A stretch of 64,000 bases of DNA from Escherichia phage KIT06. The notes under the pieces were generated by a model. It saw only the letters and a list, made by a program, of their open reading frames with translations. It was not told where the DNA came from and ran no database searches. This document shows, piece by piece, positions 1,969-64,000 of the stretch; within the stretch, counting starts at the first letter, position 1; each line of letters starts with the position of its first letter. The position numbers and the translations under genes are program-made. Location: the sequence record OQ349392.1; one strand, written 5' to 3'.

Positions 1969-2778
1969 TTAGAAACGAGATGCGACTTTCGCATATACAC
2001 TTACAATATCTTCTGCACCAGGTGCAGTTTTATCTTCTACAGCTTCAGTGACGAAATTCAGTCCGGCTGCTTCAGTATCAGGAGTATTTATACCCTCAGT
2101 AATAGTGCTTTCATCTTTATTAGACTTCTTCACCATTTCTACGATGGCACTCAATTTATTTGAGAATTCATCTGAATAATCCATACCTTCGACCAGAGCA
2201 GAGACTTTTTCTTTTTGAGACTCAGTCAGATCTTTAGTACTTTCGCTCAATGCCACTTCACGCTGCACATAATTGATATATGCGTCGCGCATATTGAGTT
2301 CTTCGAACAGACGAGCTGATTCTTCTTTATGTTCTTGCAGCTCTTCTTCCATTTCAGCCACAACATCAACTGATTCTTCTGGAACAACAACGTTGTGTTC
2401 AACAAAGAGCTCTTTTAATCCACCAAGCATGGATTCAAACAGTTCGGCTTTGATGCCTTTATCAACTGCTAATTTATTTTCAGCGAGCCATTCTTTCGCA
2501 AGATGGTCAATGAATTTAGAAGCTTGCTCAGCGATTTTCTTCTCAGCTTTTTCTTCTGCTTCTTCTTTATTTTTTTCTACTTCTTCTTCTGCTTTTTCAG
2601 CAATTTTAGCGATATGAGATTCAGCTAATTTAACGGCGTGCTGCTTGACGGTAGCTTCGAATACAGTGCCGAAAGTTTCTTTTGCTTCCGGAGAAATATT
2701 AACTGATTCGAAAATACTATCAAGAGCAACGGAAGCATCAATTTTTTGCGCTTCAGCAATCAGTTGTTCTTTAAGCAT
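1969..2778 (-). CDS. 22: prohead core scaffold protein gp22
   Basis: 269-aa ORF, acidic coiled-coil-rich, immediately upstream of gene 23; size and synteny as in T4. Confidence 0.93.
   Translation of the reverse strand: MLKEQLIAEAQKIDASVALDSIFESVNISPEAKETFGTVFEATVKQHAVKLAESHIAKIAEKAEEEVEKNKEEAEEKAEKKIAEQASKFIDHLAKEWLAENKLAVDKGIKAELFESMLGGLKELFVEHNVVVPEESVDVVAEMEEELQEHKEESARLFEELNMRDAYINYVQREVALSESTKDLTESQKEKVSALVEGMDYSDEFSNKLSAIVEMVKKSNKDESTITEGINTPDTEAAGLNFVTEAVEDKTAPGAEDIVSVYAKVASRF
2085..2092 (-). promoter_or_regulatory. candidate late promoter (TATAAATA on minus strand) inside the 3' end of gene 22, possibly serving gene 23
   Basis: Plus strand reads tatttata at 2085-2092; T4 late promoter consensus is TATAAATA; about 135 nt upstream of the gene 23 start. 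Confidence 0.4.
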
Positions 2779-2805
2779 TTTGTAGTCCTGTTGTTTAGAT
2801 AATAA

Positions 2806-2813
2806 TATTTATA
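2806..2813 (-). promoter_or_regulatory. late promoter (TATAAATA) for gene 22
   Basis: Plus strand tatttata at 2806-2813, 28 nt upstream of the gene 22 start codon at 2778. Confidence 0.7.
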
Positions 2814-3447
2814 ACGCTTTTTTCATGGCCTCTGCGAGAGCCATATAGGCGTCATCGGCACTTGTATCGGCTTCCGCCGTCTGTGATTCGGTAATTTCCT
2901 TAGGAGTTACCCATGCATCTGGAGCACTTGGACCCCATACTGCATCAACACCTACAGTTAATTTGAATCCTTCGTTTACGATACGATAACCTTTATTTGT
3001 GTCAGTCAATGAACCTAATCCACGAGAAGAAACTCCTGGAATCCATCCGGCACGAATATTAGCTGCTAATTTATCTCCAGGACCGTGGTCACCTTCAATA
3101 ACACGAGCTCGTCCGTATACGTCATTTCCTTTCCACCACATATCTTCTATAATGATAGCGGCTTGCATCGGGTCAACATTAGCGCGTGGAGGATGATTTA
3201 ATTCTCCGAGAGCTTGTTTTGTTAAAACTTGCTCATTGATATAGTCTTTTACCGCTTTTTCTAATATGCGTTTTGGATAAAGACGTTTATTTCTATTGAC
3301 GACTTCTGCTTGCATGAATATTCCTTCGATGTATAAACCCGGTTTTAAACCTAGGTCTTTTCCATCGTGGGATTCAAGCATTGGCACACCATCAATAATT
3401 TCGCCAGGTTGACCCCAAGTTTCAATTAGTAATTGGGGTTCATTCAT
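2809..3447 (-). CDS. 21: prohead core protease gp21
   Basis: 212-aa ORF; [16 protein letters not shown]...; size and synteny match T4 gp21. Confidence 0.93.
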   Translation of the reverse strand: MNEPQLLIETWGQPGEIIDGVPMLESHDGKDLGLKPGLYIEGIFMQAEVVNRNKRLYPKRILEKAVKDYINEQVLTKQALGELNHPPRANVDPMQAAIIIEDMWWKGNDVYGRARVIEGDHGPGDKLAANIRAGWIPGVSSRGLGSLTDTNKGYRIVNEGFKLTVGVDAVWGPSAPDAWVTPKEITESQTAEADTSADDAYMALAEAMKKAL

Positions 3448-3872
3448 TAGCTTAATCCTAATGCTTTACGGCGTTTAAGAGCTTTTTTACGCTTACGCTG
3501 AGCACGAGATTGACCTGCTGGATTGGCAATCTTCGTTTTGGTAGCTTTGCGAGCAATTTGTCTACGTTTTGCTTTAGACAGCCCAGTGGTTTGAAATGCA
3601 TTACGTTCGCGTGTTTTGCGGTCTTTAGTGCGTGTAATTTCACCACGAGCTGAAACGTGCTTAACAATGAATTCATTTAACGGCATATTTTCATTAATAG
3701 AAGCTAATGCAACTGCTAAATCAGTTTCATCGTCAAGCATATTCTCGACAATTGTATTTATATCGTCTTTATTTAAAGCAGAAGACAATTCGTCAAAGCG
3801 ACCCTGTGCTTCAGGAATAAGTGCTTCGACATTCTCGAGAACTAATTCATGAGTTTCAGGGATCAGAAGCAT
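3447..3872 (-). CDS. 68: prohead core protein gp68
   Basis: 141-aa ORF with basic C-terminus, between 21 and 67 as in T4. Confidence 0.85.
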
Positions 3873-4104
3873 TATTCATCATCCTCGTCTTCGTCAGAGT
3901 CTTTGTCTTTTTTGTCGTCTTTATCATCACCATCTTCGTCATCATCCTCGTCTTCAGGTTCTTCACCTTCGATTAAGAAATTACGAGCGATAGCGATTTT
4001 TTCTTCTTTAATTAAATCAATCGTTCTTGCAGCCATGGCTTCAGCAAATAATTTACGAGCGGCTACGAGGTCGTTTGATTTAATAGCTTCAATTAAACCT
4101 TCCA

Positions 4105-4105
<1 letters not shown>
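3872..4105 (-). CDS. 67: prohead core protein gp67 (highly acidic)
   Basis: 77-aa ORF ending in an Asp/Glu-rich tail ([27 protein letters not shown]); position as in T4. Confidence 0.85.
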
Positions 4106-5730
<1,625 letters not shown>

Positions 5731-6336: not shown

Positions 6337-6354
6337 GGCCTGCCGAAACAGGCC
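6337..6354 (-). terminator. terminator hairpin downstream of gene 18
   Basis: ggcctg-ccgaaa-caggcc stem-loop just past the gene 18 stop (6371). Confidence 0.6.
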
Positions 6355-6370
6355 TTTAGAATGCACCGTA

Positions 6371-8350
6371 TTAACCTGCAAGACCAGTTAACTCATCGAA
6401 ATCTGCACCAGTAGCAGTTGCTACGAAGTTCAAGGTAATGTAGTTAATGCTTCTAGCCGGTTGGATGTAGAATGTTGCAACAAACTCATTTCTATCAATT
6501 ACTGACGGAGTGTTATTTGTTGTATCGCAAACTACACGATATTCATAAATTCCACCGAGAGCTTTAATTCCCTGCAAGTACTGGGAAGTTTCTGTGCGGA
6601 ACGATGAACGAGTAAACGCGTTGTTTAATTCGAACAAACGATATTTTGAACTACGTCCGATATTCGTTTTCAACATATTAAACAGACGACGAACGTTAAT
6701 ACGATCAAATGGAGAAGGAACAGAAGTAGCTGTTTTATCACCATACAATACGTAACCATCACCACCTGTACCAGTTACTGGGTTGATAGCTTCTTGGTAT
6801 AAACGGTCGCGCTGCGCCTGGCGAGTTTCAATAGCAAGTTTAATAACGTTAAGAATCTGGCCACGATTATAACCAGCTGGAGACATCCAAGTCTGAGAAA
6901 CGTTATCAGTTCTTGCGCATAAACCAGCAATATCAGCTGCTAATGGAACCCAACGATTCACATCATTATATTTGTCATACTGATACTTGTAGTTACCATC
7001 AATTGCTGCATAGGTTGAACTGATATTAAAGTTATTATCAGTGTATGAACCTGCTGCAGTTCTCCAATTGACTAAGTTATCAACAGCACGAGTTACAGGA
7101 ATTCCAACCACAGTTTCACGCGGTGGTGAGCACAATACCAAGCAATCTTGGCGAGCATCCCCGATTGAAACAACATGTTTTTGTACAGTAGATGCTGTTT
7201 CTAAAGATTCACCGGCACAAGAACCCGCAATAAACAACTGAACATCAACGGATTCACGGTCAGCAAAGAAGTCCCAAGCTTCCATCAAATCTCCTGCTGT
7301 TACTTCAGCATTTGATGATAATCCGCCAGACAGAGTTAAAATTCCAGAGAAGCCTTCTGGCCAGTTTTGTGCAGTTGCGAAAATATATTCTGAACCACCT
7401 TTTGCGAAAAAGTCATCAATATAGATGTTACTATCGTAAATATCTTTTTCACCACGCTTCGTTGAAAGAACAACGCTTTGAACAATAGCATCATTGCGAC
7501 GAACTATAATAGCGTATTGCGAATCAGTTTGTGGTCCATATCCAAACACAGCTTTAGCAGTAGATGCACGAGTACCACCGCCTGGATAAATTGGCAGTAA
7601 TGCAGAAGCCCCTTTTGCGTAGTCAGCTTTAGATACGATTTCAATTTCAATTTTATCGCCCAACTCACCTGGATAAAGAGCTACTACTCCTGGAATTCCG
7701 TATTTTTCGAGATTTGCTTGAAAGTCAACCGCTGTCATAGCAGCTTCAGCATTTTCAATTTCAGCTAATAAAATACCAGAATCAGTAATAATTTTTCCAA
7801 GAGTTATTACTGCAGCTAAACCAGAGGAAGATGAAGAAATTTCCGCAGTCCAGTTAGAACCTAGTGTTGGATATTCACCGACTTCTTTAGCTTTAGCGAT
7901 AATTTTTGCAGTAGGAATATTAATTTTCTTAATTTTTCCATCTGTGTCTACTTCAGTAATTTTACCTTCAGTTTCAATAGCATCTGAAACATATTTGACC
8001 GTGATTTTATCTCCAACCGCATAGTTACTACCTGGGGTAGAAATAGTGTATTCAATATTACCAGCAATCGGAGATGAGTTTTTAGCGGTATCTCTATCGA
8101 CAGCACGCACAACTCGCAAATCATTTCCATATTGTAAGAAATTCATTGCAGACATAAAATAGTCAGCAGTTTCAGCTGTAGGTTGACCAAAAGTATTAAC
8201 TAAATCTACTTCATTTGTAACCTGTTTGATCTGAAAAGCAGGACCCCACTGGAATTTACCGGCCAAAGCTGCTGTACCAGTAGAGTTATTAACCACGGTG
8301 CTTTGAACCGTAGTTTCTTTGAGCTCAATGCCCGGAGATAATAAAGTCAT
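6371..8350 (-). CDS. 18: contractile tail sheath protein gp18
   Basis: 659-aa ORF; size and synteny match T4 gp18. Confidence 0.96.
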   Translation of the reverse strand: MTLLSPGIELKETTVQSTVVNNSTGTAALAGKFQWGPAFQIKQVTNEVDLVNTFGQPTAETADYFMSAMNFLQYGNDLRVVRAVDRDTAKNSSPIAGNIEYTISTPGSNYAVGDKITVKYVSDAIETEGKITEVDTDGKIKKINIPTAKIIAKAKEVGEYPTLGSNWTAEISSSSSGLAAVITLGKIITDSGILLAEIENAEAAMTAVDFQANLEKYGIPGVVALYPGELGDKIEIEIVSKADYAKGASALLPIYPGGGTRASTAKAVFGYGPQTDSQYAIIVRRNDAIVQSVVLSTKRGEKDIYDSNIYIDDFFAKGGSEYIFATAQNWPEGFSGILTLSGGLSSNAEVTAGDLMEAWDFFADRESVDVQLFIAGSCAGESLETASTVQKHVVSIGDARQDCLVLCSPPRETVVGIPVTRAVDNLVNWRTAAGSYTDNNFNISSTYAAIDGNYKYQYDKYNDVNRWVPLAADIAGLCARTDNVSQTWMSPAGYNRGQILNVIKLAIETRQAQRDRLYQEAINPVTGTGGDGYVLYGDKTATSVPSPFDRINVRRLFNMLKTNIGRSSKYRLFELNNAFTRSSFRTETSQYLQGIKALGGIYEYRVVCDTTNNTPSVIDRNEFVATFYIQPARSINYITLNFVATATGADFDELTGLAG

Positions 8351-57999: not shown

Positions 58000-58929
58000 A
58001 TGAAAACTCGTAAACATTATATTGATTATTTTGATAGTCTTATTACTAAACACCGTAATTATCAGATCGGACACAGAGCAGTAATCAATAATATTCTTCG
58101 TGATTTCCTTCAATATGTTGGCCAGGAAAATCATATCTGTAAAGATACACAGAACGCTTATTCTCATTCGTTGGGCAATTTGCTTCAATGGTTTAAACGT
58201 TCTCGTATGTTATCTTCTACTGTAGCTCGCGATAACATTAAAAACTTTATGAAGCCGAGTTTTATTAAATCTGCGACATCTATAACTGATTTGGTTGAAT
58301 TTACTATTGTTAACGATGTTAAAAAGACCCATTTGGCTGATTGGCTATCTACCATTCCTGAAACTAAATTTGCTGATAAATTTGCCTGTCAATTTAATGA
58401 CCAAGTGAATATGCTTTTTAAGCATGCTCGTAAACTATTTACCGCAGGCGATGACCGTACAAATACAGTTCATGTTAAGGACTGGGTTATTGCTGATGAA
58501 GTAACACACAAGCCAGGTGGTTCATCAGTATTAATTAATATCCAGGTTCCTTATTATTACTCACGTAATCTCGGCACCATGACAGCTAGAGAAATTAATA
58601 AGCACAACAAAACTATTCGTTCGTTGTCTTATAAACTCCGCATGATGCTAAAAATTATGGACGTAGTGGAAATGTATGACGAAACCGAAGATAACGGTTC
58701 AATGTTATACAGTTCACGCATTCTAATTAAACTGAAGAACCCTAATACATATAAGACAGTTGTAAAAGAGCCTAAAGTAGAAAAGATTGATAACTTGAGC
58801 GAAGAACGTGAATATCTCAATGCTCGCTTAATTGAAGTTGAATCCCAGATTGCCGAACACACCAAATTGTTAAAAGCTCTTAATGCAAAAGCAAATGGTT
58901 TACGCAATGCTATTGAGGTATTGAAATGA
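58000..58929 (+). CDS. hypothetical protein, member 4 of the tandem family
   Basis: 309-aa ORF; C-terminal ...[24 protein letters not shown]. Confidence 0.6.
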   Translation: MKTRKHYIDYFDSLITKHRNYQIGHRAVINNILRDFLQYVGQENHICKDTQNAYSHSLGNLLQWFKRSRMLSSTVARDNIKNFMKPSFIKSATSITDLVEFTIVNDVKKTHLADWLSTIPETKFADKFACQFNDQVNMLFKHARKLFTAGDDRTNTVHVKDWVIADEVTHKPGGSSVLINIQVPYYYSRNLGTMTAREINKHNKTIRSLSYKLRMMLKIMDVVEMYDETEDNGSMLYSSRILIKLKNPNTYKTVVKEPKVEKIDNLSEEREYLNARLIEVESQIAEHTKLLKALNAKANGLRNAIEVLK

Positions 58930-59243
58930 AAAAGCGTCTATTAGAAGATATTGCAGCTTCAAGTAATTCCAGTCTAATTAAAATTATTATGGCTGGTGAA
59001 GAAGACGATCTGGAAATGCGTGGAAAGATTCATGGTTGCGATGATTTAGACTTTAAACCTCCAGCCTGGGATGCCATTATGGTTATGGTTGAACGCCGCG
59101 AAAGGGCTTCTAAGAATGTTCCGAACTGCCCAAAATGTGGTACTGAACAGGTTCAATTAATTCATTGGCAGACTAGTAATCTTCGTTATAAATGTCGTCA
59201 TTGCAAACACCGATTTAACCGAGAAGAAAATGACCAAGCGTAA
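58926..59243 (+). CDS. zinc-ribbon protein
   Basis: 105-aa ORF with CPKCG...CRHCKH C4 motif. Confidence 0.55.
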
Positions 59244-59472
59244 AGAATATATGGAGATTGCTGAAAAGGCAGTCCGCGAATTAGCAATAGCTTATTATTA
59301 TGAACATGGTAAATTTCCTGATAGATACAGCGTGCTTAAATCTGCTTTAACTCGTTCATATAAAAATATGCTATCAGAAGTAAGTGATATTATATACAAA
59401 CATAAAGAACAAACAGGTCAAAGTCTTGATTACGACGAGACTTTTAAACAAGTACTAGGAATTAAGGAATAA
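59230..59472 (+). CDS. hypothetical protein
   Basis: 80-aa ORF overlapping the previous gene. Confidence 0.5.
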
Positions 59473-59473
59473 T

Positions 59474-59737
59474 ATGTTTAAAGTATATGGTTATGATAGC
59501 AGCATCCATAAATGTGTGTATTGCGATAATGCAAAACGTCTTTTGACTGTGAAGAAACAGCCGTTTGAATTTATCAACATTATGCCGGAAAAAGGTGTTT
59601 TTGATGATGAGAAAATCGCTGAGCTTCTAACTAAACTGGGTCGTGATACTCAAATTGGTTTGACAATGCCACAAGTATTTGCTCCTGATGGAAGTCATAT
59701 TGGTGGATTTGACCAATTGCGGGAATACTTTAAATGA
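59474..59737 (+). CDS. nrdC: phage glutaredoxin/thioredoxin NrdC
   Basis: 87-aa ORF MFKVYGYDSSIHKCVYCDNAKRLL... with CVYC redox motif. Confidence 0.92.
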   Translation: MFKVYGYDSSIHKCVYCDNAKRLLTVKKQPFEFINIMPEKGVFDDEKIAELLTKLGRDTQIGLTMPQVFAPDGSHIGGFDQLREYFK

Positions 59738-59949
59738 TGCTCGAAGGAACTGATTATATCCATGACTACCGCGGAAGCTCGGTATATGTAGGTGATGAGG
59801 TTGCAGTTTATTACGGGTATGGAACTTTGATGACAGCAAAGGTTATTCAAATTAAAAATAATCGTGCTAAACTCGAAGTTTATTATTCTAACGGTGAAAA
59901 GTCTATTTCTAAATGGAAATACGGCGATTGCATGGTCAAACTGGGGTAA
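59734..59949 (+). CDS. hypothetical protein
   Basis: 71-aa ORF, ATGA overlap with nrdC. Confidence 0.5.
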   Translation: MMLEGTDYIHDYRGSSVYVGDEVAVYYGYGTLMTAKVIQIKNNRAKLEVYYSNGEKSISKWKYGDCMVKLG

Positions 59950-59951
59950 AT

Positions 59952-60122
59952 ATGATTTACGATATTAGTGTATCAAGAACTCCGTCAATGGTTACTATTC
60001 CAGCCGAAGAATTAGATCGTCTTCAGAAAATTGAAGAGCTTCTTTGGGAAATTGAATCTGATTTGCCATCAGGATTAGAATCCTGGATTGATTATGAAGA
60101 ACTTAATAAATTGCGAAATTAA
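59952..60122 (+). CDS. hypothetical small protein
   Basis: Track ORF 59913..60122; ATG at 59952; 56 aa. Confidence 0.45.
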   Translation: MIYDISVSRTPSMVTIPAEELDRLQKIEELLWEIESDLPSGLESWIDYEELNKLRN

Positions 60123-60133
60123 AGTGGTGAAAA

Positions 60134-60454
60134 ATGAATATTGAAAATAAATTAGATGTTGATGCAGTTCTGAGTGAAATCATCGAAGACCATGATGCAT
60201 TTTCAGAAAATTATGATTTCGATTTTTCGGATTATCTTAAACCTGTCGAAATAGAAGATTGGGTACAAGATGGCAAATGCCAATATCGGAAGTGCGTTTA
60301 TTTTAGTCCGAAACATAATGTACATGTTTCCGTAAATGAATCTCGCTCAGGTTCTTACCATTCTGACTGGTATTATGCAGTTCCAACTGTTGAACTAGTC
60401 GAGCCTCGTGAACGCGTAGTAACTCAGACAATACGAGAATGGATTACGCTATAA
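60134..60454 (+). CDS. hypothetical acidic protein
   Basis: 106-aa ORF. Confidence 0.5.
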   Translation: MNIENKLDVDAVLSEIIEDHDAFSENYDFDFSDYLKPVEIEDWVQDGKCQYRKCVYFSPKHNVHVSVNESRSGSYHSDWYYAVPTVELVEPRERVVTQTIREWITL

Positions 60455-60577
60455 AACCTTGGTGGGCGGCTAGATGGGAAACTGTAGAGCCAGAGCCGGA
60501 AGAACCGGTTTACACTGATGAAGAAACAGTATATAATGAACCTACGATAAATGACTTAATTGATATGGAGATGGGAC

Positions 60578-61024
60578 ATGATTACAGTAGATAAGTGGTT
60601 TAGAATTAATCGTGCTGATACAGGGCTGTGTAATTATTGGCCGGAACTTAGTGCAGGTACTGTCTTTAAAGTTCGTGAACTTACAAAAGAATGCGAAGAT
60701 GATATAGAACCTGATACTGGAATTATTGAAATTGAACTTTCTGATGGAAAGATTATTAACATCTACGATAAGCCAATTACGTATTGGTGCTTATGGAATA
60801 CTGAATCAGTAGAAAATGGCGAAATTGAAGAGGTCGTAGAACGAGTTGATCAAGCTATTCATAAACCTAAAGCCGCTTTTCAAGGTGAACGTATTTCATA
60901 TGCATTAGCTAAATTAGCTGCGCAAGAAAACAACGATGGCTATGAAGGAAATTTGATGCAAGCTGCGGCAGAATATATTGAATGGCTTGAAACTCAAATT
61001 TCTTTTTCTGACCGAGCATTTTAA
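60578..61024 (+). CDS. hypothetical protein
   Basis: Track ORF 60560..61024 (TTG); first in-frame ATG at 60578; about 148 aa; a possible 52-aa overlapping ORF at 60439..60597 is unresolved. Confidence 0.5.
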   Translation: MITVDKWFRINRADTGLCNYWPELSAGTVFKVRELTKECEDDIEPDTGIIEIELSDGKIINIYDKPITYWCLWNTESVENGEIEEVVERVDQAIHKPKAAFQGERISYALAKLAAQENNDGYEGNLMQAAAEYIEWLETQISFSDRAF

Positions 61025-61073
61025 TACTTGAAAATAATAAATACCCTTATCTATTCAAGGTAAGGGTTTTATT

Positions 61074-61547
61074 ATGTTATTGACTGGCAAATTATACAAA
61101 GAAGAAAAACAAAAATTTTATGATGCACAAAACGGTAAATGCTTAATTTGCCAACGAGAACTAAATCCTGATGTTCAAGCTAATCACCTTGACCATGACC
61201 ATGAATTAAATGGACCAAAAGCAGGAAAGGTACGTGGGTTGCTATGTAATCTCTGTAATGCTGCAGAAGGTCAAATGAAGCATAAATTCAATCGTTCTGG
61301 CTTAAAGGGACAAGGTGTTGATTATCTTGAATGGCTAGAAAATTTACTTACTTATTTAAAATCCGATTACACCCAAAATAATATTCACCCTAACTTCGTT
61401 GGAGATAAATCAAAGGAATTTTCTCGTTTAGGAAAAGAGGAAATGATGGCTGAGATGCTTCAAAGAGGATTTGAATATAATGAATCTGACACTAAAACAC
61501 AATTAATAGCTTCATTTAAGAAGCAGCTTAGAAAGAGTTTAAAATGA
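61074..61547 (+). CDS. 49: endonuclease VII (Holliday junction resolvase)
   Basis: 157-aa ORF; CxxC...HLDHDH...CNLCN zinc and active-site motifs; size matches T4 gp49. Confidence 0.88.
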   Translation: MLLTGKLYKEEKQKFYDAQNGKCLICQRELNPDVQANHLDHDHELNGPKAGKVRGLLCNLCNAAEGQMKHKFNRSGLKGQGVDYLEWLENLLTYLKSDYTQNNIHPNFVGDKSKEFSRLGKEEMMAEMLQRGFEYNESDTKTQLIASFKKQLRKSLK

Positions 61548-63361
61548 CAATTGAAAAAGAAATTGAAGGATTGATTCATAAAACTAATAAAGACCTTTTA
61601 AACGAGAATGCTAATAAAGATTCTCGTGTTTTTCCAACTCAACGGGACCTTATGGCTGGTATTGTGTCTAAACACATTGCCAAAAATATGGTCCCGTCTT
61701 TTATTATGAAAGCGCATGAAAGCGGAATTATTCATTTCCATGATATTGATTATTCCCCTGCTCTTCCATTTACTAATTGCTGTTTAGTAGATTTAAAAGG
61801 AATGCTTGAGAACGGATTTAAGCTCGGTAATGCACAGATTGAAACTCCTAAATCAATCGGTGTTGCTACTGCAATTATGGCACAAATTACTGCACAGGTT
61901 GCTTCCCATCAATATGGTGGAACGACTTTTGCGAATGTAGATAAAGTACTTTCTCCTTATGTTAAACGCACCTATGCAAAACATATTGAGGACGCAGAAA
62001 AATGGCAAATCGCTGATGCGTTGAATTATGCCCAATCTAAAACAGAAAAAGATGTATACGATGCATTCCAAGCTTATGAATACGAAGTAAATACTCTCTT
62101 TAGTTCAAACGGACAAACGCCTTTTGTAACAATTACATTTGGTACGGGAACTGACTGGACTGAACGAATGATTCAGAAAGCAATTCTGAAAAATCGTATT
62201 AAAGGCCTTGGTCGCGACGGGATAACTCCTATTTTCCCTAAACTTGTTATGTTCGTTGAAGAAGGTGTTAATCTTTATAAAGACGATCCGAACTATGATA
62301 TTAAGCAGCTTGCTCTAGAATGTGCAAGTAAAAGAATGTATCCTGACATCATTTCGGCTAAGAACAATAAAGCTATCACCGGTTCATCTATTCCTGTTTC
62401 TCCAATGGGTTGTCGTAGTTTCTTGGGTGTATGGAAAGATTCGACTGGTAATGAAATTCTTGATGGACGTAATAATCTTGGTGTTGTAACACTGAATCTT
62501 CCTCGCATTGCACTAGATTCTTATATTGGAACACAGTTCAATGAACAGAAATTTGCCGAATTGTTCAATGAGAGAATGGATTTATGTTTTGAAGCATTGA
62601 TGTGTAGAATTAGTTCATTAAAAGGAGTTAAAGCTACTGTTGCTCCTATTCTTTACCAAGAAGGTGCATTCGGGGTTCGTCTTAAACCTGATGACGATAT
62701 AATTGAGTTATTTAAAAACGGTAGAAGTTCAGTGTCTTTGGGATACATTGGTATTCACGAATTGAATATTCTTGTCGGTCGTGATATTGGACAAGAAATT
62801 TTAACTAAAATGAATGCTCATCTTAAGCAGTGGACTGAAAGAACTGGTTTTGCTTTTAGTTTGTATTCGACACCTGCTGAAAACCTGTGCTATCGCTTCT
62901 GTAAACTTGATACCGAAAAATATGGAAGTGTAAAAGATGTTACCGATAAAGGCTGGTACACTAACAGTTTCCACGTTTCAGTAGAAGAAAATATCACTCC
63001 GTTTGAAAAGATTTCTCGTGAAGCACCATATCATTTCATTGCGACAGGTGGTCACATTTCTTATGTTGAACTTCCTGATATGAAAAATAACCTAAAAGGT
63101 CTTGAGGCTGTATGGGATTATGCTGCGCAACATTTAGATTATTTTGGCGTTAACATGCCAGTAGATAAATGTTTTACGTGTGGAAGTACCCATGAAATGA
63201 CTCCTACTGAAAACGGATTTGTTTGTTCTATTTGTGGAGAAACTGATCCTAAAAAGATGAACACAATAAGAAGAACATGCGGATATCTTGGAACTCCTAG
63301 CGTTGTTCCATGGAATTTAGGTAAAATGAAAGAAATGGTAAAACGAGTAAAACATGCATAG
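61544..63361 (+). CDS. nrdD: anaerobic ribonucleoside-triphosphate reductase NrdD, uninterrupted
   Basis: 605-aa continuous ORF; C-terminal Zn-ribbon (CFTCGSTHE...CSICGETD) and glycyl-radical motif RRTCGYLG; ATGA overlap with gene 49. Confidence 0.95.
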   Translation: MTIEKEIEGLIHKTNKDLLNENANKDSRVFPTQRDLMAGIVSKHIAKNMVPSFIMKAHESGIIHFHDIDYSPALPFTNCCLVDLKGMLENGFKLGNAQIETPKSIGVATAIMAQITAQVASHQYGGTTFANVDKVLSPYVKRTYAKHIEDAEKWQIADALNYAQSKTEKDVYDAFQAYEYEVNTLFSSNGQTPFVTITFGTGTDWTERMIQKAILKNRIKGLGRDGITPIFPKLVMFVEEGVNLYKDDPNYDIKQLALECASKRMYPDIISAKNNKAITGSSIPVSPMGCRSFLGVWKDSTGNEILDGRNNLGVVTLNLPRIALDSYIGTQFNEQKFAELFNERMDLCFEALMCRISSLKGVKATVAPILYQEGAFGVRLKPDDDIIELFKNGRSSVSLGYIGIHELNILVGRDIGQEILTKMNAHLKQWTERTGFAFSLYSTPAENLCYRFCKLDTEKYGSVKDVTDKGWYTNSFHVSVEENITPFEKISREAPYHFIATGGHISYVELPDMKNNLKGLEAVWDYAAQHLDYFGVNMPVDKCFTCGSTHEMTPTENGFVCSICGETDPKKMNTIRRTCGYLGTPSVVPWNLGKMKEMVKRVKHA

Positions 63362-64000
63362 GTATTATATAATTTATAAAATAACAAATATAATTAATTC
63401 AAAGGAATATATCGGTGCGCATAGCACCGATAACATAAATGACGGTTATATGGGGTCAGGAACATTGATTCGTGCCGCTTTATTAAAATATGGTAGAAAA
63501 AATTTTAATAAAGAAATTTTACATGTTTTTGATAATGAAAAACAAATGTATGATAAAGAAGCTGAACTCGTAACCGAAGAGTATTGTCTAAAAGAAAATA
63601 CATATAATATTAAACCTGGTGGAAAAGGTGGAACTGCCTATGAACAGACACTTGAACATCGCCGCAAAAATAGTTTAGCAAATAAAGGTAAAAAGAGAAC
63701 AGAAGAAACTAAAATAGCTATTTCACGTGCTTTAAAGAAATATAAACGTACGCCAGAGCATCAAGCAAATTTAAATAAAGCCGTAAGCATAGCTATGAAG
63801 CGAAAAGATGTTAGAAGTAAATTAGCTGGAGAGCGGTCTGAGAAAGATAAATTATCTATATCAAACGGTGTTAAAAAATATTACAATTCTTTGAGTGAAG
63901 AAGAACGCGAACTTCATCGCAAGCGAATTATTGAAGGTAAAAAGAATTCTCCCATGTCATTGGAATCTAGACAAAAGCTTTCAAAAGCTTTAAAAGGACT
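63354..64000 (+). mobile_element. GIY-YIG homing endonuclease gene (free-standing, Seg/I-Tev-like), 3' end beyond the window
   Basis: Translated by hand from ATG 63354, overlapping the nrdD stop: MHRYYIIYKITNIINSKEYIGAHS... (GIY-x10-YIG), conserved R and E, then repeated basic NUMOD3-like segments; at least 215 aa with no stop before the window end. Confidence 0.8.

What the first reader, a model, noticed from the sequence alone, without database searches (positions are those of the whole stretch)
61544..64000. Intron-less nrdD with a free-standing GIY-YIG homing endonuclease gene overlapping its stop codon
nrdD is one continuous 605-codon ORF, whereas T4 nrdD is, as I recall, interrupted by a group I intron carrying I-TevII. 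Here a GIY-YIG endonuclease ORF starts at 63354, 8 nt before the nrdD stop, and runs to the window end. This is an alternative mobile-element configuration at the same locus, possibly an intronless homing system targeting a neighbouring gene.
Basis: partly seen in the sequence, partly recalled or inferred. Interest (0 to 1): 0.55.

Follow-up and report, generated by a model that had tools for sequence, protein, structure and literature searches.

The report
Known SegH homing endonuclease after nrdD

Summary
nrdD (61544-63361) is one uninterrupted 605-codon gene. An ORF from ATG 63354 overlaps its stop codon by 8 nt and stays open to the window end.

The ORF is not new. Its 639 nt after the nrdD stop are 100% identical to segH of phage RB3 (GenBank AY262138.2, deposited as "SegH, homing endonuclease"), and all 215 residues match. 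A public contig identical to the last 5.5 kb of the window completes the gene to 276 aa, followed by nrdG, so it is neither truncated nor decayed.

SegH has an I-TevI-like build: a GIY-YIG nuclease domain, NUMOD3 repeats and a C-terminal DNA-binding domain. It occupies the nrdD/nrdG slot where T4 carries the HNH gene mobC. It is therefore the alternative to mobC, not to the I-TevII intron; one phage carries both intron and segH.

About 72 of roughly 930 related phage records carry segH, and most have an empty junction. The cassette brings its own recoded last 22 codons of nrdD. It is near-identical between phages whose flanks differ by about 4%, and decayed copies exist. All of this fits a homing element.

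Verdict: already known, low interest.

The parts
61544..63361 (+). nrdD, the large subunit of anaerobic (class III) ribonucleotide reductase. It is 605 codons and uninterrupted. Its start overlaps the gene 49 stop as ATGA.
   Evidence: ORF. Pfam NRDD E 4.8e-171 and Gly_radical 6.9e-25. 602 of the 606 translated positions compared (605 residues plus the stop codon) match T6 and RB3 NrdD. No Rfam intron hit.
62060..62110 (+). Empty insertion site of the T4 nrdD group I intron. The intron would sit between 62081 and 62082. The window carries the intron-less allele, GCTTATGAAT|ACGAAGTAAATACTCTCTTTAGT.
   Evidence: Comparison with T4 and RPN226, whose introns are both 1033 nt. The intron-bearing alleles carry 7 synonymous changes within about 25 nt (one 2 nt upstream of the insertion site, six in exon 2). 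The window matches the RB3, T6 and GiZh intron-less allele except for C at 62083.
63269..63292 (+). Codons 576-583 of nrdD, RRTCGYLG, the glycyl-radical loop. The Gly580 numbering is from my knowledge of T4 NrdD. This is the last conserved segment before the recoded tail.
   Evidence: Alignment of NrdD C-termini. The Gly_radical Pfam hit covers residues 481-585.
63280..63361 (+). Recoded 3' end of nrdD that travels with segH. Residues 584-605 read TPSVVPWNLGKMKEMVKRVKHA. Phages with an empty site, with mobC, or with the Jbel-type gene have NPNERGFNLGKNKEIMHRVKHQ instead. This stretch is the left end of the mobile cassette.
   Evidence: identity to the empty-site phage GiZh falls from 28-30 of 30 to 16-19 of 30 from about 63284. 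In one search the closest-backbone phages that lack segH stop aligning at window 63297. The variant tail is found in 79-80 records, close to the segH count, and nothing between 95% and 72% identity exists in the collection.
63354..64000 (+). segH, the first 215 of 276 codons; it runs off the window end. It is a free-standing GIY-YIG homing endonuclease gene. The ATG overlaps the nrdD stop by 8 nt in a different reading frame.
   Evidence: Translation. 639/639 nt and 215/215 aa identical to RB3 segH (AY262138.2, protein ABI48949.1). Completed to 276 aa in the identical contig L012. PHROG 314 'homing endonuclease' at 2.4e-60. TIGR01453 'group I intron endonuclease' at 3.3e-13.
63354..63638 (+). 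GIY-YIG catalytic domain of SegH, about residues 1-95. Motif tyrosines are Y8 (IIY) and Y19 (YIG). E69 and N85 are invariant across homologues. R40 is the probable counterpart of I-TevI R27.
   Evidence: Invariant columns of the 65-sequence alignment A1. AlphaFold model with pLDDT 94-98 over residues 1-90. The top PDB fold match is the I-TevI catalytic domain 1MK0 (prob 1.00, target TM 0.67, 100 columns). The residue equivalences to I-TevI are my inference.
63639..64000 (+). Helical linker with NUMOD3-type repeats, about residues 96-215. The C-terminal I-TevI-like DNA-binding domain (residues 226-273) lies beyond the window end.
   Evidence: Pfam NUMOD3 2.6e-5 on the window fragment. Full-length T6 SegH adds I-TevI_DNA-bd at 2.5e-4, which is below the Pfam cutoff. 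Fold match to the I-TevI DNA-binding domain 1I3J_A at prob 1.00.
63410..63432 (+). Stem-loop with a 9-bp stem, TATCGGTGC-GCATA-GCACCGATA, inside segH codons 19-27. Its function is unknown and it may be incidental.
   Evidence: Found by the terminator-like scan on the minus strand. It is the dominant element of the centroid fold of 63340-63450, z = -2.6.

Best explanation
The ORF is segH, a known free-standing GIY-YIG homing endonuclease gene of T-even-type phages (Tequatrovirus). It sits in the nrdD/nrdG junction of a phage whose nrdD lacks the T4-type intron.

Most likely mechanism. The first step is inferred from the gene layout here; the later steps rest on the established model for seg genes and are not tested here:
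1. segH has no promoter of its own in this stretch. It is probably transcribed with nrdD and translated by coupling, because its ATG overlaps the nrdD stop.
2. In a mixed infection, SegH cuts the DNA of a co-infecting relative near the nrdD/nrdG junction. SegH is an I-TevI-like monomer: an N-terminal GIY-YIG nuclease, a NUMOD3 linker and a C-terminal helix-turn-helix.
3. The break is repaired by recombination with the segH+ genome as template. This copies segH and its flanks into the recipient (intronless homing, also called marker exclusion).

The mobile unit is larger than the ORF. It includes a recoded last 22 codons of nrdD, starting directly after the glycyl-radical loop, and often a recoded first ~13 codons of nrdG.
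For: Identity with SegH:
- 639/639 nt and 215/215 aa match RB3 segH, deposited as 'SegH, homing endonuclease'.
- T6 and LZ2 have the same gene in the same place.
- The gene is completed to 276 aa, followed by nrdG, in a contig identical to the window.

Family and fold:
- PHROG 314 at 2.4e-60 and TIGR01453 at 3.3e-13.
- Similarity to T4 SegD (29.5% identity, E 5e-20), SegE and SegC, and to I-TevII (30% over 128 aa, E 4e-6).
- The AlphaFold model (pLDDT 88) matches both the catalytic and the DNA-binding domains of I-TevI at prob 1.00.
- Y8, Y19, E69 and N85 are invariant in 65 homologues.

Free-standing: no intron model hit in the window, with positive controls in T4 and RPN226.

Mobile-element signatures:
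- Sporadic distribution. 72 records carry segH, 32 carry mobC, and most of the 837 records matching the junction query have an empty junction.
- Window versus RB3 shows 74 mismatches up to 63250 and then 1 mismatch in the last 750 nt.
- The closest backbones (EP01, CT01) lack segH and stop aligning at 63297.
- Decayed copies exist: a 4-nt duplication frameshift in phage sutha and an in-frame internal deletion to 80 aa in PD112.
- A 47%-identical homologue also sits right after nrdD in a Slopekvirus.

Literature:
- T4 mobC occupies nrdG/nrdD.
Against: - No cleavage or homing was tested here, and the primary SegH paper could not be read. The cleavage site is therefore not known to me from a checked source.
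- Pfam's generic GIY-YIG model (PF01541) does not hit this protein. The SegE_GIY-YIG and TIGR01453 hits are below their curated cutoffs.
- A sequence-only search of the PDB found nothing.
- The last 61 codons are outside the window. They are inferred from an identical contig, not read from the window itself.
- As I recall the 2005 abstract (unverified), SegH also cuts segH+ DNA. If so, that would weaken the idea that the recoded flanks confer immunity.
Confidence: 0.93

Rival explanations
1. The gene is an inactive remnant: a homing endonuclease gene on its way to decay that no longer cuts DNA.
For: Decay does occur at this locus in close relatives. Phage sutha, the best overall match to the window, has a frameshift, and PD112 has an internal deletion.
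Against: - The window copy is open for all 215 codons. It is intact at the position where sutha has its 4-nt duplication.
- The identical contig L012 gives a full 276-aa ORF.
- The protein is identical to RB3 SegH, which the depositors annotate as a homing endonuclease.
- The motif and catalytic residues Y8, Y19, E69 and N85 are present.
Confidence: 0.05
2. The nuclease is kept mainly for a benefit to the phage rather than for its own spread. Possible benefits are exclusion of competing phages' markers, gene regulation as with I-TevI autorepression, or break-driven amplification of neighbouring genes.
For: - Reviews describe autorepression by I-TevI and marker exclusion by seg genes (PMC2988022).
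- A 2026 paper reports that SegB drives amplification of anti-defence loci in T6 (PMC13096335 abstract).
- Because the segH start codon lies inside the recoded nrdD tail, clean loss of segH is difficult. Even the PD112 deletion keeps both ends.
Against: - Only about 8% of related records carry segH, and most do well with an empty junction.
- Decayed copies exist, which argues against strong selection for the protein.
- Nothing in the sequence points to a specific host-benefit function.
- This reading is compatible with homing rather than an alternative to it.
Confidence: 0.1
3. The ORF belongs to an intron or intein that interrupts or extends nrdD. On this view it is not free-standing.
For: It is a distant relative of the intron-encoded I-TevII and I-TevI. 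TIGR01453 is named 'group I intron endonuclease'.
Against: - No Rfam family is found in 60500-64000 at E<=1, while the same search detects the T4 and RPN226 introns.
- nrdD is complete, with its own stop, and aligns end to end with the Pfam NRDD profile.
- segH is in a different reading frame, starts one codon after an in-frame TAA, and is followed directly by nrdG in identical or near-identical sequences.
Confidence: 0.01

Closest known systems
SegH of phages RB3, T6 and LZ2 (Sandegren, Nord and Sjoberg, Nucleic Acids Res 2005, 33:6203; GenBank AY262138.2, AY262137.2, AY262139.2)
   Same: It is the same gene. The match to RB3 is 100% at nucleotide level (639/639) and protein level (215/215). 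The match to T6 SegH is 210/215 aa. The position is the same, with an 8-nt overlap of the nrdD stop. The recoded nrdD tail is the same, and nrdG follows.
   Different: Only the genome background differs. The window's nrdD differs from RB3 by about 4% up to roughly 63250. The overall backbone is closest to phages sutha and EP01, at 96-97% identity.
MobC of phage T4 (HNH family, free-standing)
   Same: It occupies the same nrdD/nrdG slot in the same orientation and is sporadically distributed, with 32 records.
   Different: - It belongs to an unrelated nuclease family, HNH (phrog_655), not GIY-YIG.
- It is inserted on the nrdG side: its ORF begins with a duplicated copy of the first 7 nrdG codons and leaves the ancestral nrdD tail intact.
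- The review lists its activity as not determined.
I-TevII, the endonuclease encoded in the group I intron of T4 nrdD
   Same: It is a GIY-YIG-type enzyme associated with the same host gene, nrdD. The two proteins are distantly related (30% identity over 128 aa, E 4e-6).
   Different: - It is intron-encoded and sits about 1.3 kb upstream, at window-equivalent position 62081|62082.
- It is independent of segH: RPN226 has both.
- The window has the empty intron site.
I-TevI (T4 td intron; solved structures 1MK0, 1LN0 and 1I3J)
   Same: It has the same modular build: a GIY-YIG catalytic domain, a flexible linker and a C-terminal DNA-binding domain. Both I-TevI domains are the top fold matches of the SegH model.
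   Different: - Only about 24-26% identity over the aligned domains.
- SegH has a much longer helical linker with NUMOD3 repeats. No zinc finger was checked for.
- SegH is free-standing.
T4 SegD, SegE, SegC, SegF and SegG (free-standing GIY-YIG 'seg' genes; intronless homing)
   Same: They are the same protein family and have the same lifestyle. SegD is the closest T4 paralogue (29.5% identity over 91% of the length, E 5e-20). This explains why RB3 genome records label segH as 'segD'.
   Different: They sit at different loci and have different targets. SegH is not an orthologue of any T4 seg gene.

Membership tests
SegH (the specific gene) | Sequence identity with the type SegH protein and gene of RB3, T6 and LZ2 | tested here: met
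   639/639 nt and 215/215 aa match RB3 (AY262138.2, protein ABI48949.1). The match to T6 is 210/215 aa.
SegH (the specific gene) | Location between nrdD and nrdG, in the slot where T4 has mobC | tested here: met
   The left junction is in the window. The right junction, where the segH stop overlaps the nrdG ATG, is seen in contig L012, which is 100% identical to window 58544-64000.
SegH (the specific gene) | Intact full-length ORF of 276 aa | tested here: inconclusive
   215 codons are open in the window. The remaining 61 codons are seen only in the identical contig L012 and in RB3, not in the window itself.
GIY-YIG nuclease superfamily | GIY and YIG motifs plus conserved catalytic Arg, Glu and Asn | tested here: met
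   The motifs are IIY (Y8) and YIG (Y19-G21). E69 and N85 are invariant in 65 homologues, and R40 matches the alignment's majority (>=50%) residue at that column. The equivalence to I-TevI Y6, Y17, R27, E75 and N90 is my inference.
GIY-YIG nuclease superfamily | A curated profile hit above threshold (Pfam PF01541 or PF19835, or TIGR01453) | tested here: not met
   PF19835 SegE_GIY-YIG scores 22.0 bits against a cutoff of 25. There is no PF01541 hit. TIGR01453 scores 50.2 bits against a cutoff of 56.05. Many homologues at 40-65% identity do carry PF01541 or PF19835.
GIY-YIG nuclease superfamily | GIY-YIG fold | tested here: met
   In the AlphaFold model, residues 1-90 have pLDDT 94-98. The best PDB match is the I-TevI catalytic domain 1MK0 (prob 1.00, target TM 0.67), followed by 1LN0.
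Free-standing homing endonuclease gene (intronless homing) | Not embedded in an intron or intein | tested here: met
   No Rfam hit in 60500-64000 at E<=1. Positive controls are found in T4 and RPN226. The ORF is separate, in another frame, and lies after a complete nrdD.
Free-standing homing endonuclease gene (intronless homing) | Sporadic presence among close relatives with an otherwise collinear, conserved site | tested here: met
   72 records carry segH, 32 carry mobC, and most of 837 have an empty nrdD|nrdG junction with an ATGA overlap.
Free-standing homing endonuclease gene (intronless homing) | The cassette is more conserved than its flanks, as expected for recent horizontal spread with co-conversion | tested here: met
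   Window versus RB3 shows about 4 mismatches per 100 nt in nrdD up to roughly 63250, then 1 in 750 nt. 48 of 72 segH copies are at least 99% identical. Backbone relatives without segH break off at 63297.
Free-standing homing endonuclease gene (intronless homing) | Site-specific cleavage of the allele lacking the gene, and biased inheritance in mixed infection | not testable with these tools
   This needs experiments. I recall the SegH paper reporting both for SegH (unverified), but that paper is not held in the library. [quoted passage not shown]
Intron-encoded endonuclease (I-TevII type) | The ORF lies inside a group I intron that interrupts the host gene | tested here: not met
   There is no intron in the window. 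The intron site at 62081|62082 is empty. SegH shares only 30% identity with I-TevII over 128 aa.

The most novel reading that the evidence does not exclude
The recoded last 22 codons of nrdD may be a functional part of the segH element. These codons start directly after the glycyl-radical loop, and their donor lineage is absent from the phage collection. They could alter or destroy the SegH homing site, giving partial immunity. They also place the segH start codon inside an essential-gene terminus, which would make clean loss of segH difficult. The nrdD/nrdG junction would then be a contested hotspot where at least three unrelated endonuclease genes (segH, mobC and a Jbel-type HNH gene) each rewrite a different flank. 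I could not check whether the 2005 paper already describes this.
Probability: 0.3. Interest if true: 0.3.

Novelty: already known. Interest (0 to 1): 0.1.

Why it matters
The finding matters little in itself. It re-identifies a characterised selfish gene, and the sequence is identical to a GenBank entry submitted under the name SegH.

The survey does add some context:
- Frequencies in current phage genomes: about 8% carry segH, about 3% carry mobC, and the rest are mostly empty.
- Clear examples of each stage in the life of a homing endonuclease gene: an intact copy, a frameshifted copy and an internally deleted copy.
- The cassette carries a recoded C-terminus of an essential enzyme.

It also flags annotation errors in public records: segH labelled 'segD' and started at Met33 in the RB3, RB5, RB6, RB7, RB9 and RB10 genomes.

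Tried and rejected
- **Primary paper.** I tried to read the SegH paper by PMC id, DOI and PubMed id. It is not held. Other held papers mention SegH only in their reference lists. The mapped cleavage site therefore could not be checked.
- **PDB by sequence.** The search gave only chance hits with E above 0.1. The fold search was needed instead.
- **RNA structure hiding the segH start.** I looked for one, as described for I-TevI, I-TevII, I-TevIII and segB. The fold of 63290-63400 is no better than shuffled sequence (z = +0.55), so I rejected it.
- **A promoter for segH.** No T4 late-promoter core (TATAAATA) occurs on either strand in 61001-64000. There is no properly spaced MotA-box promoter just upstream of segH. 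The sigma-70-like scan finds fewer sites than in shuffles.
- **Donor of the variant NrdD tail.** A tblastn search of the phage collection shows nothing between 95% and 72% identity. The donor remains unknown.
- **Variant nrdG 5' end as an obligatory part of the cassette.** I rejected this because contig L011 has an identical segH with the ancestral nrdG start.
- **Exact source genome.** No record in the phage collection exceeds about 96-97% identity over the last 25 kb. An exact match was found only in a Logan assembly contig.
Full report

Yes. The ORF listing gives one ORF at 61544..63361 (+) of 605 aa. It matches Pfam NRDD end to end (E 4.8e-171) and Gly_radical. Its ATG overlaps the stop of gene 49 (endonuclease VII).

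The sequence ...AAACATGCATAG at 63350-63361 holds an ATG at 63354, 8 nt before the end of the nrdD stop codon and in another frame. The in-frame codon at 63348-63350 is TAA, so this ATG is the earliest possible start. The frame stays open for all 215 codons to the window end. The product begins MHRYYIIYKITNIINSKEYIGAH, a GIY...YIG motif pair.

No RNA family, including group I introns, is detected in 60500-64000 even at E<=1. The same search finds RF00028 in T4 and in phage RPN226, so the negative result is meaningful.

NC_000866 annotates nrdD as a two-exon join around I-TevII, 'encoded by group 1A intron in nrdD; GIY-YIG family'.

**2. What is it?**

A megablast of 61000-64000 hits 929 phage records, which are T4-like phages (the listed hits are Tequatrovirus). 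Several of them name the gene after nrdD 'segH' (T6, PP01, F2, SYGD1). The 639 nt after the nrdD stop are 100% identical to RB3 segH. That includes GenBank AY262138.2, 'Bacteriophage RB3 NrdD, SegH, NrdG', where the CDS is annotated 'SegH, homing endonuclease', 276 aa. All 215 residues in the window match RB3 SegH, and 210 of 215 match T6 SegH.

[quoted passage not shown] That title is cited in PMC2988022 and PMC2790892. I could not read the paper itself.

**3. Is the ORF complete?**

The window ends inside the gene. A look-up of the exact NrdD protein found four public contigs. One of them, L012 (Logan SRR17680687, 53.9 kb), is identical to the window over all 5457 nt compared (58544-64000). 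In L012 the ORF runs to 276 aa, is identical to RB3 SegH, and ends with a stop that overlaps the nrdG ATG.

**4. Family and architecture.**

Profile hits:
- PHROG 314 'homing endonuclease', 2.4e-60.
- TIGR01453 'group I intron endonuclease', 3.3e-13 over the full length, but at 50.2 bits it is below the 56.05 cutoff.
- Pfam NUMOD3 above its cutoff. SegE_GIY-YIG and I-TevI_DNA-bd are below theirs.

The closest T4 paralogue is SegD (29.5% identity, E 5e-20). This explains the 'segD' label in the RB3-RB10 genome records. I-TevII is a distant relative (30% identity over 128 aa, E 4e-6).

An alignment of 65 homologues shows Y8, Y19, G21, E69 and N85 as invariant. An AlphaFold model built on it (pLDDT 88; 94-98 over residues 1-90) has the I-TevI catalytic domain (1MK0, 1LN0) and the I-TevI DNA-binding domain (1I3J) as its only confident PDB matches, each at prob 1.00.

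SegH is therefore an I-TevI-like modular enzyme: a GIY-YIG nuclease, a long helical NUMOD3 linker and a C-terminal DNA-binding domain.

**5. Context and comparison with T4.**

In T4 the slot between nrdD and nrdG holds mobC, an HNH-family gene. The I-TevII intron lies about 1.3 kb upstream. Aligning T4 and RPN226 with the window puts the intron insertion point between 62081 and 62082. The window carries the common intron-less allele there.

segH is thus the alternative to mobC, not to the intron. The two elements are independent, because RPN226 carries both the 1033-nt intron and segH.

Frequencies in the phage collection:
- segH: 72 records.
- T4-type mobC: 32 records.
- Full T4-type intron: 25 records cover 80% or more of the T4 intron query.
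- Most of the 837 records that match the junction query have nrdD and nrdG abutting with an ATGA overlap, as in GiZh.

**6. Anatomy of the mobile unit.**

In every segH phage examined, the last 22 codons of nrdD are recoded to TPSVVPWNLGKMKEMVKRVKHA. Empty-site phages, T4 (mobC) and Jbel have NPNERGFNLGKNKEIMHRVKHQ. The switch begins directly after the glycyl-radical loop RRTCGYLG. Against the empty-site phage GiZh, identity drops from 28-30 of 30 to 16-19 of 30 at about 63284. The window's closest backbone relatives that lack segH (EP01, CT01 and others) stop aligning at 63297.

The variant tail is present in 79-80 records, essentially the segH set. Nothing in the collection is between 95% and 72% identical to it, so its donor lineage is unknown.

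On the other side, most segH phages have a variant first ~40 nt of nrdG, including a D10C change. This is separable from segH, because contig L011 has an identical segH with the ancestral nrdG start.

**7. Signatures of mobility.**

- Window versus RB3: 74 mismatches across nrdD up to 63250 (about 4%), then one mismatch in the last 750 nt.
- 48 of 72 segH copies are at least 99% identical to the window.
- Decayed copies exist. Phage sutha, the best overall match to the window, has an ATAA duplication that frameshifts segH after codon 29. PD112 keeps only residues 1-46 fused in frame to 236-276.
- A 47%-identical homologue sits immediately after nrdD in a Klebsiella Slopekvirus. This suggests a lineage-wide association with the nrdD 3' end.

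**8. How it most likely works.**

No late-promoter core or well-spaced MotA promoter precedes segH. No significant RNA structure masks its start. Expression therefore most likely relies on read-through from nrdD and on translational coupling through the 8-nt overlap. The review describes this arrangement for several T4 free-standing endonucleases (PMC2988022).

The rest follows the established intronless-homing model for seg genes and is not shown here:
1. SegH cuts a co-infecting genome near the nrdD/nrdG junction.
2. The break is resected and repaired from the segH+ genome.
3. segH and its flanks are co-converted into the recipient.

The cleavage site is unknown to me. The region replaced in segH+ genomes (63280-63361 plus the start of nrdG) is a candidate homing site. 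However, my unverified recollection of the 2005 abstract is that SegH also cleaves segH+ DNA. If that is right, it argues against simple sequence immunity.

**9. Verdict.**

Novelty: already known. Interest: low. The most novel reading still open is that the recoded NrdD C-terminus is a functional part of the cassette, acting in immunity or in retention of segH. I rate this modest in both probability and importance.

Noticed in passing
L008 (Salmonella phage Jbel, PP942088.1) 1995-2834: A third, different occupant of the nrdD/nrdG slot. It is a 279-aa HNH-type endonuclease gene (phrog_655; 38% identity to T4 MobC over 60 aa). Its ORF begins with a duplicated copy of the first 13 nrdG codons. 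T4 mobC likewise begins with the first 7 nrdG codons.
   Followed up: partly
L007 (phage vB_vPM_PD112, NC_054928.1) 1991-2233 and 1-450: segH is reduced to an 80-aa in-frame deletion (residues 1-46 joined to 236-276). Separately, another annotated homing endonuclease gene lies directly upstream of nrdD, and the first ~250 nt of nrdD differ from the window by about 35%. This looks like a parallel case of an endonuclease gene travelling with a recoded nrdD end.
   Followed up: partly
L002 (phage sutha, PV245934.1) 6354-7188; window-equivalent position after 63434: A 4-nt ATAA duplication frameshifts segH in the phage that is otherwise the best overall match to the window. The window copy is intact at that point.
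   Followed up: yes
window 63410-63432: A perfect 9-bp stem with a 5-nt loop (TATCGGTGC GCATA GCACCGATA) lies inside segH codons 19-27. It is the dominant feature of the local RNA fold (z = -2.6). The review notes that terminators sit in the 5' coding regions of mobE and segF, but this hairpin has no U-tract on the + strand.
   Followed up: partly
L005 (RB3 genome, KM606994.1) 3589-4790; also RB5, RB6, RB7, RB9, RB10 and T6 AP018814.1: Annotation errors in public records. segH is labelled 'segD' and started at Met33, which drops the GIY motif, and the nrdG start is truncated. In the T6 record AP018814 the nrdD region is labelled 'RNA ligase 1 and tail fiber attachment catalyst'.
   Followed up: no
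L010 (Klebsiella phage vB_KM5a1-KLB27, Slopekvirus) 2959-3810: A 283-aa SegH homologue (47% identity) lies 53 nt after nrdD in a different genus, where nrdG is 3 kb away. It does not overlap the nrdD stop.
   Followed up: partly
L011 (Logan DRR827190 contig) 4811-5680: segH is identical to RB3 SegH but is followed by the ancestral-type nrdG 5' end. The variant nrdG start seen in most segH phages is therefore not an obligatory part of the cassette.
   Followed up: yes
window 62083: The window has C (TAC) where every other intron-less allele compared, and the T4 exon junction, has T. The position is 2 nt 3' of the I-TevII intron insertion point. Whether it affects I-TevII recognition is unknown.
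   Followed up: no
window 61456-61490: A MotA-box-like TGCTTCA is followed 12 nt later by TATAAT, in the 3' end of gene 49. It could be a middle promoter serving nrdD and segH. This is a consensus match only.
   Followed up: no
L009 (phage vB_EcoM-RPN226, OL770073.2) 2045-5718: This phage carries both the 1033-nt T4-type nrdD intron with its endonuclease ORF and segH. Its exon 2 shows the same synonymous changes next to the intron as T4.
   Followed up: yes
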